Origin: Eledone cirrhosa
Taxonomy: Eukaryota
Direction of reading: 5' to 3'
Length of the DNA: 33,714 nucleotides
NCBI GenBank assembly: GCA_964016885.1
Contig: CAXHJY010001186.1
Span: 1 to 33,714 of the forward strand
The notes under the pieces were generated by a model that worked only from the letters and a program-made list of their open reading frames with translations, had not been told where the DNA came from and did not search any database. Position 1 is the stretch's first letter, and every line of letters starts with the position of its first letter. Positions 31,939-32,689 of this stretch are shown here, one piece after another. Made by a program: the position numbers and the translations under genes.

Positions 31939-32010
31939 TCAATCGGGGATAACCACAGTAAGTGACGTACTCAATACATAGCAGAGTATAAATATTTAAT
32001 ATAAAAATGG

Positions 32011-32057
32011 CTTCTACAGTACTATTACTGTTTCATTCGGGGGAAATCATCAGGAAA
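32011..32057 (-). ncRNA. Type I hammerhead ribozyme (complete core, GUA)
   Basis: UUUC-CUGAUGA-u UUC cccc GAA u-GAA-ACAGUA auag UACUGU-A|GAAG: 6-bp helix III and 4-bp helix I with one G-U pair. Confidence 0.8.
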
Positions 32058-32059
32058 GT

Positions 32060-32109
32060 GCTTCCCTGATGATTTCTCCCGGATGAAACAGTAATAGTCA
32101 TGTAGAAGC
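32060..32109 (+). ncRNA. Type I hammerhead ribozyme, mirror copy, partly degenerate
   Basis: GCUUC-c-CUGAUGA-u UUC uccc GGA u-GAA-ACA guaauaguca UGU-A|GAAGC; helix I needs a 1-nt bulge and helix III is only 3 bp. Confidence 0.65.
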
Positions 32110-32689
32110 CATTTCTATATTAAATATTTATACTCTGCTATGTATTGAGTACGTCACTTACTGTGGTTATCCCCGATTGAGCCCGGGATAAAAACATACA
32201 GATATATATATATATATATATATATATATATATATGTATGCATGTATATATATATATATATGTGTGTGTGTGTGTCTCTGTGTGTGTGTGTGTGTGTGTG
32301 TGTGTGTGTGTGTGTGTGTGTGTGTGTGTGTGTGCTTATATATATATATATATATCATTATCGTCGTCGTTTTAACGTCTGCTTTTCCTACCAATATTCA
32401 ACTCTCTTTCTCTCTCTTTCTCCGAAAGAAATAAGTAGGCTCTGCCAGATTTTCAAAAATCCCTAAGACAAACCGTGTGTCAGGAACAGCGTCCTTATGA
32501 CTCCATCAGGCGTCTTCTTTTACTTTCCCTCCCTCACTGCACATATAACGCACACTTTGCTGTACAGAACTGTTCATACTGTTTCATTCCTATTCGCCAT
32601 ATTGTCTGTTGTTCTACCTGCGATAAAATTTCATCAGTCAGATCAGTAATAACTCTGCACCACATTATTATCTCAGCAACTCTCAACAG

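What the first reader, a model, noticed from the sequence alone, without database searches (positions are those of the whole stretch)
31939..32191. Second, diverged palindromic double-hammerhead element (copy B) with structure-preserving changes
Seen: a 242-bp palindrome homologous to copy A but clearly diverged. CUGAUGA, GAAAC and GUA are unchanged, while the helix II loop differs (uaaa, cccc, uccc) and helix I pairing is kept with different sequence (AGAUUC/GAAUCU versus GCUUC or UUUC/GAAG). Helix III reaches 6 bp on the minus strand. The two arms differ at several positions, which argues against a sequencing fold-back artefact. Inference: selection on ribozyme structure in a mobile family with hammerheads in both polarities, an arrangement reminiscent of ambisense viroid-like RNAs and retrozymes.
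Basis: partly seen in the sequence, partly recalled or inferred. Interest (0 to 1): 0.9.

Follow-up and report, generated by a model that had tools for sequence, protein, structure and literature searches.

The report
Mirror-image stub of Penelope retrotransposon
The palindrome with a hammerhead ribozyme motif on each strand is real, but it is one of thousands of short, likely dead, head-to-head stubs left by a known kind of jumping gene (a Penelope-like retrotransposon), so the second ribozyme is likely a by-product of how the element inserts rather than a sign of a viroid-like RNA.

Summary
Observation confirmed; interpretation mostly not supported. Copy B is two head-to-head copies of the hammerhead-bearing end (pLTR plus 'tail') of a Hydra-clade Penelope-like element (PLE). 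The core motif has 19,868 exact matches in this genome. A full-length relative (pLTR, 758-codon RT/GIY-YIG frame, pLTR) carries copy A's version; a broken, ~77% identical ORF ends in copy B's version. Helix I covaries between source subfamilies, but in dispersed copies the core mutates as fast as its flanks (arm versus arm 21/245 vs 102/1099, p=0.81). Only 1 of 90 B-type loci keeps a complete hammerhead on both strands, and either transcript of copy B folds into a hairpin of about -190 kcal/mol that buries the motif. Inverted pLTRs, and a Hydra PLE with its hammerhead on both strands, are already published. This scan reported similar palindromes in two other genomes. A useful extra: a TATA box, a pile-up of copy ends and an untemplated G suggest that the transcript starts at the ribozyme's first base, and that capped, uncut RNA is copied twice, from two start sites. 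No RNA data were available.

The parts
31937..32192 (.). Copy B: head-to-head pair of pLTR+tail ends of a Hydra-clade PLE (subfamily with loop UCCC), between (GT)n and (TA)n
   Evidence: + arm 90% identical to the 3' pLTR of the broken ORF in L159
32060..32110 (+). Type I minimal hammerhead motif, + arm: helix I 5' strand 32060-32064, extra C 32065, core 32066-32072, helix II 32074-32083 with U.U at its base, GAAA 32085-32088, 3-bp helix III, A17 = 32104
   Evidence: cleavage untested
32010..32058 (-). Type I minimal hammerhead motif, - arm: C3 = 32053, 4-bp helix I, 6-bp helix III, A17 = 32015
   Evidence: cleavage untested
32054..32065 (.). Junction of the two arms, at the 5' strand of helix I, i.e. 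at the inferred transcription start of the source RNA; this stretch varies from copy to copy
32105..32127 (+). Rest of the pLTR down to the 'short' end (about +61 from C3), where full-length elements and most inverted arms meet (TA)n; inferred first RT start site
   Evidence: (loose ends at 32127-32132)
32128..32192 (+). Optional ~65-nt tail (5' UTR leading to the ORF in full elements); its end is the inferred second RT start site
   Evidence: (loose ends at 32192)
31937..31991 (-). Tail on the - arm, shortened by about 9-11 nt; a tail on both arms is rare and was possibly copied later from the other arm
17415..17613 (.). Copy A: ordinary tailed (- strand) plus untailed (+ strand) palindrome of the younger subfamily; only the - arm has a full helix I

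Best explanation
Copy B consists of two head-to-head copies of the hammerhead-bearing end of a Hydra-clade Penelope-like retrotransposon, likely made when the element's enzyme copied the first ~130 bases of its RNA into both strands of a cut in a microsatellite and the two short copies were joined, so it is likely an inert stub. Steps: (1, inferred) Pol II starts about 30 nt below a TATA box, at the first base of helix I. (2, inferred, from published in vitro work on another PLE) the RT/GIY-YIG protein nicks both strands of AT-rich DNA and starts reverse transcription at two internal sites, here about +61 and about +127 from C3. (3, inferred) each cDNA runs to the capped 5' end, often gaining one extra G, or stops earlier. 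(4, inferred) the two cDNA ends are joined head to head through short microhomologies or small insertions, which puts a hammerhead sequence on each strand. (5, shown) after insertion the core decays at the same rate as the flanks. (6, inferred) selection on the ribozyme acts only in ORF-bearing source copies. Copy B is the rare form with a tail on both arms, possibly after later arm-to-arm copying.
For: Parent found: L093 = 5' pLTR with this hammerhead, tail reading into a 758-codon open frame, 3.6-kb repeat-rich 3' region, 3' pLTR ending in (TA)n. 23 of the 30 best ORF loci have the core 170-185 nt above the first ATG. L159 links copy B's subfamily to a broken ORF 75-78% identical to it and has an inverted 5' copy. 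The protein has the Hydra marks listed in PMC8557442 section 11: RWR, DKT, CxCX5C, no CCHH, CxxC and CxH around the final E/N. Architecture: 55 of 90 B-type and 38 of 70 A-type tail-found loci have an adjacent inverted arm, whose outer end lies at +50..62 in 43 of 55 and 37 of 38. Inner ends pile up at -7..-4 (A: 28 of 108 arms, none at -11..-8). TATAAAT starts 35-37 nt above C3 in all 31 hits. Copies joined straight to (TA)n show a non-native G at -7 in 40 of 91 B loci (native C in 18) and 19 of 77 A loci (4 within GA repeats; native C in 12) (hand counts). Junction overlap of 2 or more bases in 15 of 22 insert-free A junctions. Neutral decay. Literature: inverted pLTRs with palindromic junctions and optional tails (PMC3846280); two RT start sites bounding the tail, extension of both strands, and uncut RNA as the main template (PMC11167929); Penelope-13_HM listed with its hammerhead on both strands because of an inverted 5' copy.
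Against: No RNA data: the start site, cap and cleavage are read only from DNA footprints; the extra G could be a cap-independent untemplated base. Counting all variants, not only rare ones, B-type cores are slightly more conserved than the rest (4.1% vs 5.7%, p=0.054), and A-type rare variants lean the same way (10/922 vs 130/7210, p=0.14); this fits inherited variation but is not zero. Copy B itself has none of its 7 inner changes in the core (chance about 0.16) and is nominally complete on both strands, as only 1 of 90 B-type loci is. Later deletions in the palindrome centre could blur the junction pattern. No intact ORF of B's own subfamily was found, and no tree was built against named Hydra elements. 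Samples are the first matches on one contig, not random.
Confidence: 0.88

Rival explanations
1. Same PLE origin, but the mirror arm is made by fold-back: one cDNA snaps back on itself and is copied, instead of two cDNAs being joined.
For: Self-priming was proposed for palindromic PLE junctions (PMC3846280). Some junctions could be a 2-bp hairpin with a 3-4 nt loop. All five other both-tailed copies examined mirror some flanking repeat DNA, which needs DNA-templated copying at some stage.
Against: Fold-back of a sense-templated cDNA predicts that the tailed arm reaches further inward. The opposite holds: the untailed arm reaches further in 26 vs 8 A pairs (p=0.003) and 36 vs 14 B pairs (p=0.003). 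The +61 end is also the primary end of full-length copies. Many junctions carry short insertions (16 of 38).
Confidence: 0.2
2. The palindromes are a self-propagating, ambisense, viroid-like or retrozyme-like RNA family in which hammerheads on both strands are under selection.
For: Both cores in copy B are intact; helix I covaries across the family; thousands of copies; 10 of 70 young A-type loci are complete on both strands.
Against: Core not conserved over flanks in dispersed copies. Centres differ from copy to copy and often delete one ribozyme. Same-strand pairs within 660 nt in 0 of 90 and 1 of 70 loci. Antisense precedes each motif, and the predicted chance of helix III forming is about 1e-16, also for the nascent RNA. 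The covariation is between ORF-bearing subfamilies.
Confidence: 0.04
3. A MITE-like DNA transposon whose inverted arms happen to contain a hammerhead.
For: Short, non-coding, high copy number, palindromic, in TA repeats.
Against: The two outer ends are usually different (tail end vs +61), the centre is variable, solo single arms are common, and the sequence is the terminus of an RT-coding element.
Confidence: 0.02
4. Sequencing or assembly fold-back artefact on an unplaced contig.
For: The window is a whole 33.7-kb unplaced, repeat-rich contig.
Against: Arms differ at 7 pair positions, flanks are not mirrored, and the same structure recurs on the large contigs.
Confidence: 0.02

Closest known systems
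Hydra-clade Penelope-like elements (Craig et al. 2021, PMC8557442; e.g. Penelope-13_HM, Hydra-1_Obim)
   Same: RT plus C-terminal GIY-YIG with DKT, RW(K/R), CxCX5C, no CCHH; (TA)n targets; type I hammerhead with U after CUGAUGA, U before GAA and a 4-nt loop II, as in most Hydra magnipapillata entries; Penelope-13_HM has the motif on both strands through an inverted 5' copy.
   Different: Hammerhead sequence differs from the listed Hydra-1_Obim, and a 13-nt family motif is absent from the supplement text held. Units are 4.3-6.0 kb because of a long microsatellite-rich 3' region, not under 3 kb. Copy number of the ends is in the tens of thousands.
Inverted-pLTR insertions of canonical EN+ PLEs (Arkhipova et al. 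2013, PMC3846280) and opposite-strand dual min-HHRs (Cervera and de la Pena 2014, PMC4209133)
   Same: Head-to-head inverted pLTR, palindrome at the junction, optional tail, TATA box in the pLTR; minimal hammerheads on opposite strands close together; palindromic loop III.
   Different: The tail is about 65 nt rather than 30-40; the two cores are often under 20 nt apart rather than 100-700; helix II is short with U.U instead of G10.1-C11.1.
Poseidon_Ac PLE in vitro (Frangieh et al. 2024, PMC11167929)
   Same: Two internal RT starts bounding the tail, AT-rich target, both strands extended, uncut RNA as template.
   Different: Other clade; there the ORF starts inside the ribozyme, here the first ATG is about 178 nt below C3. 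Head-to-head joining was not shown there.
Non-LTR retrozymes (PMC7229834; bioRxiv 10.64898/2026.07.22.740005)
   Same: Non-autonomous, PLE-related, type I hammerheads; a U.U at the base of helix II occurs in an axolotl motif that cleaves weakly.
   Different: Retrozymes are same-strand tandem repeats that release circles; these are inverted pairs with one motif per strand.
Viroid-like RNAs with hammerheads in both polarities (Avsunviroidae, satellites, ambiviruses; search listing only)
   Same: One hammerhead sequence on each strand, highly self-complementary.
   Different: Those are circular RNA replicons. This is chromosomal DNA, the second motif is a near-exact copy of the first, and no selection on it is seen.

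Membership tests
PLE pLTR (EN+ PLE insertion) | Sequence flanks an RT + GIY-YIG ORF as direct repeats | tested here: met
   L093, L141, L147, L155; for copy B's own subfamily only a 3' pLTR after a broken ORF, L159
PLE pLTR (EN+ PLE insertion) | Adjacent inverted 5'-truncated copy and optional tail | tested here: met
   55 of 90 and 38 of 70 loci
Hydra clade PLE | RWK-type motif, DKT, CxCX5C linker, no CCHH, CxxC and CxH near the C-terminus | tested here: met
   Read by eye in P0001 against PMC8557442 section 11; RWR in place of RWK
Hydra clade PLE | C-terminal GIY-YIG endonuclease | tested here: inconclusive
   YIG motif present; Pfam PF01541 only E=0.019, below cut-off; the paper notes that Hydra endonucleases are divergent
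Hydra clade PLE | Insertion in (TA)n and hammerhead in the pLTR | tested here: met
Hydra clade PLE | Generally shorter than 3 kb | tested here: not met
   pLTR-to-pLTR 5,966 nt in L093 and 4,266 nt in L141; a descriptive trait, the excess is microsatellite in L093
Hydra clade PLE | Groups with named Hydra RTs in a tree | not tested
   No named Hydra protein was held as a tool sequence; 610 homologues found, almost all unnamed
Type I hammerhead ribozyme | Conserved core (C3-A6, G8, A9, G12-A14, A15.1, U16.1, H17) and three helices | tested here: met
   Both arms; + arm needs one extra nucleotide before C3
Type I hammerhead ribozyme | G10.1-C11.1 pair | tested here: not met
   U.U, as in many listed Hydra motifs
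Type I hammerhead ribozyme | Self-cleavage | not testable with these tools
   Folding predicts none inside the palindrome
Non-LTR retrozyme | Tandem same-strand hammerheads delimiting a 150-450 nt monomer | tested here: not met
   0 of 90 and 1 of 70 loci
Ambisense viroid-like RNA | Hammerheads of both polarities conserved by selection | tested here: not met
Ambisense viroid-like RNA | Circular RNA replicating RNA to RNA | not testable with these tools
   No RNA run available
MITE | Identical terminal inverted repeats and fixed internal sequence | tested here: not met

The most novel reading that the evidence does not exclude
The thousands of stubs are a fossil record of the PLE life cycle: the transcript begins at the very first base of its hammerhead, 30 nt below a TATA box, so cleavage would cut off the cap and act as an off-switch; only capped, uncut RNA is copied (untemplated G at -7); and the head-to-head repeats of PLEs arise from two cDNAs primed on opposite strands from two different internal start sites and then end-joined, not from self-priming on an antisense RNA. 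This would answer an open question on PLE inverted repeats and give the ribozyme a concrete, testable role.
Probability: 0.5. Interest if true: 0.55.

Novelty: new member of a known kind. Interest (0 to 1): 0.3.

Why it matters
As a single locus it matters little: it is one decayed stub among thousands. It matters as a warning, since such palindromes will keep looking like ambisense viroid-like elements in genome scans. The family itself is useful: one subfamily has many near-identical, open ORFs, so it is likely recently active, and its many short copies give statistics on where PLE RNA starts, whether the ribozyme cuts before copying, and how inverted pLTRs form. Roughly 3,400 hairpin-forming palindromes with both cores exact (17 pairs in the first 100 matches, extrapolated) could also feed small-RNA silencing; this is untested.

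Tried and rejected
Rfam: whole-window scan listed microsatellite-driven miRNA hits (150 of 384 rows shown); the 256-nt scan gave 14 matches, none a hammerhead and none at a gathering score. The repeat finder was swamped by microsatellites. The 30 best PF01541 loci and 12 long-frame endonuclease loci belong to other PLE families and did not end in this hammerhead; two of them (L107, L109) hold separate nearby copies. A pattern for B's tail running on into an ORF found nothing, so no intact B-type 5' end was seen. RNA runs: no RNA holder listed. Four contig sets of unknown kind, at most 2 samples and 1 study and possibly the window's own source, hold the family and show loose ends at both fixed ends, but no piece spans copy B. 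PDB sequence search gave nothing significant. A pile-up of copy ends at the cleavage site (+37..41) was looked for and not seen clearly: 4 of 108 A arms, 3 of 145 B arms. A copy-B-specific sub-subfamily was looked for: its two private variants occur at 2 and 7 other places and never together. Searches for prior reports of this family or of the cap-G in PLEs (listings only, plus passages of PMC8557442 and PMC13282606) showed none; the library lacks most subscription papers and Repbase/Dfam, so this is weak. bioRxiv supplements were closed and may bear on whether this family is already catalogued.

Full report
OBSERVATION. The window is one whole unplaced contig, rich in microsatellites, of a 3.0-Gb genome; an octopus is my guess from size and repeats, not a result. 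The 242-bp palindrome at 31939-32180 is real: arms 94.2% alike, 7 mismatched pair positions, fold -192.7 kcal/mol with 0 of 200 shuffles as good. The + arm needs an extra C before C3 for a 5-bp helix I and has a 3-bp helix III; the - arm has 4 and 6 bp. Both have U.U at the base of a 3-bp helix II. Copy A is 77-78% identical, and only its - arm has a full helix I.

THE FAMILY. A DNA search gave 4,242 candidates (40 scored). A 34-letter core pattern has 19,868 exact matches and its reversed control none; the tail patterns of the B and A types have 1,750 and 8,864. In the first 100 core matches I count by hand 17 head-to-head pairs within 400 nt, 14 of them with under 20 nt between the cores.

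THE PARENT. Among 8 loci fetched for widely spaced core matches, L093 held a full element: hammerhead at the 5' end, the tail reading into a 758-codon open frame (712 from the first ATG), 3.6 kb of mostly microsatellite, and a second same-strand hammerhead ending in (TA)n. The protein has YRDD, RWR, DKT, CxCX5C, a YIG motif, and CxxC and CxH around the final E and N, without CCHH; these are the marks of the Hydra clade in PMC8557442 section 11. Pfam alone is weak (GIY-YIG E=0.019). The top 15 of 150 scored loci are listed as 100% identical over 214 residues, many with the full frame open, and 23 of the best 30 have the core 170-185 nt above the ATG. Of 20 more distant loci, L159 has a broken ORF 75-78% identical and ends in a pLTR+tail 90% identical to copy B's + arm, with an inverted copy at its 5' side. 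So A and B differ because they come from different subfamilies.

SELECTION. Ten natural copies chosen from ORF-bearing or long loci show helix I changing on both sides at two pairs and G-C to G-U at a third; 97.7% of cells pair, against 33-49% when the partner is slid. The set is small, related and hand-picked. For dispersed copies I took the first 90 of 1,750 B-type and first 70 of 8,864 A-type tail matches, found without reference to the ribozyme, all on contig C1; a few A loci overlap earlier ones. Arm against arm, core vs rest: B 21/245 vs 102/1099 (p=0.81), A 5/261 vs 29/1104 (p=0.66). Rare variants: B 23/892 vs 180/8105 (p=0.48), A 10/922 vs 130/7210 (p=0.14). All variants in B: 4.1% vs 5.7% (p=0.054), the one result leaning towards conservation. 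A complete hammerhead on both strands remains in 1 of 90 B and 10 of 70 A loci. Copy B's own 7 inner changes avoid the core, expected by chance about 16% of the time. In the whole transcript of either strand, and in the nascent RNA up to the end of helix I, the predicted chance of the A15.1-U16.1 pair is about 1e-16, because the antisense arm is made first.

HOW THE PALINDROME FORMS. 55 of 90 B and 38 of 70 A loci have an adjacent inverted arm. Outer ends are fixed at two places: the tail end, and about +61 (43 of 55 and 37 of 38 inverted arms end at +50..62); contigs of public runs show loose ends at both. PMC11167929 (parts 1-2 of 4 read) found two internal RT starts bounding the tail, cutting and extension of both strands, and uncut RNA as the main template. 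Inner ends vary independently and pile up at -7..-4 (A 28 of 108 arms, none at -11..-8; B 30 of 145; for B the reference differs at -6, so exact values are soft). TATAAAT lies 35-37 nt above C3 in all 31 hits, many of them near-identical copies. Copies joined directly to (TA)n often have G at -7 where the native letter is C: 40 vs 18 of 91 distinct B loci and 19 vs 12 of 77 A loci, 4 of the 19 within GA repeats (hand counts on the 100 listed rows, of 155 and 531 matches). In tail-found B loci 13 of 17 arms that end there have G, though some may take it from the other arm; in A only 3 of 11 do. The G precedes three different first bases, so it is not one master's variant. Untemplated 5' G is read as a copied cap for LINE-1 and SVA (PMC4859970, passages). 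I infer a capped transcript starting at helix I. Junctions show overlap of 2 or more bases in 15 of 22 insert-free cases and insertions in 16 of 38 (self-complementary helices inflate this). The untailed arm reaches further inward more often than the tailed one (26 vs 8; 36 vs 14), against simple fold-back and in favour of two cDNAs joined end to end.

WHAT IS ODD ABOUT COPY B. A tail on both arms occurs in 1 of 55 B and 0 of 38 A palindromes. In copy B and five similar copies found by likeness to it, rare letters are shared by both arms in 17 cases against 53 one-arm cases; in 52 ordinary palindromes 2 against 79 (p=5e-5; p=0.036 on the same columns). The five others mirror some flanking repeat DNA; copy B does not clearly. 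Later copying of one arm onto the other is the likely cause; a rare source RNA is not excluded.

COMPARISON WITH WHAT IS KNOWN. PMC4209133 (parts 1-2 of 4 read) reports minimal hammerheads in PLE repeats, pairs on opposite strands, palindromic loop III and low activity in vitro. PMC3846280 (passages) describes inverted pLTRs with palindromic junctions and tails. The supplement of PMC8557442 (part 2 of 59 and searches) lists Hydra hammerheads of the same build, one on both strands through an inverted copy, and a Hydra-1_Obim with a different motif. PMC7229834 (passages and section 15) and the 2026 retrozyme preprint (part 1 of 5) define retrozymes as tandem repeats. PMC13282606 (passages) does not mention Hydra elements or ribozymes. 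Viroid papers were seen as a listing only. Two earlier notes of this scan on other genomes reached the same kind of verdict; I had reached mine before reading them.

VERDICT. A real structure, a known kind of element, and a second ribozyme that is a by-product of insertion. New member of a known kind; interest 0.3, owed mostly to the mechanistic footprints, which need RNA data.

Noticed in passing
window 23445-25472 (-): Decayed LINE-type element: a 407-codon frame with an RVT_1 match (E 7.7e-24) and further RT-like frames downstream; RTE-like by recall.
   Followed up: partly
window 5388-5998: Tandem repeat of about 10 units of 61 nt with strong G skew.
   Followed up: no
L061-L088 (about 500 nt below the endonuclease) and L099/L100: Other PLE families in this genome seem to carry hammerhead-like motifs with the U3-A8 core variant described in PMC4209133 (by eye).
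   Followed up: no
flanks of L012, L013, L026, L184, L244: A second, unrelated palindromic family in TA repeats, with a hammerhead-like stretch and a similar tail motif, often lies right next to this one: shared target sites.
   Followed up: no
L093:600-4160 (-), L098: The source element carries a 3.6-kb microsatellite-rich 3' region; L098 holds two inverted copies of it, so this PLE may itself spread microsatellite DNA through the genome.
   Followed up: partly
L104, L106: Other PLE families form head-to-head inverted pairs that include parts of the ORF, the same geometry at larger scale.
   Followed up: no
G000:C21:22074195-22074430: Three same-strand matches of a B-type motif 107-108 nt apart: a short tandem array that could be retrozyme-like; not fetched.
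   Followed up: no
L003, L005, L007, L334, L335: Both-tailed palindromes whose mirror extends 20-60 nt into flanking microsatellites.
   Followed up: partly
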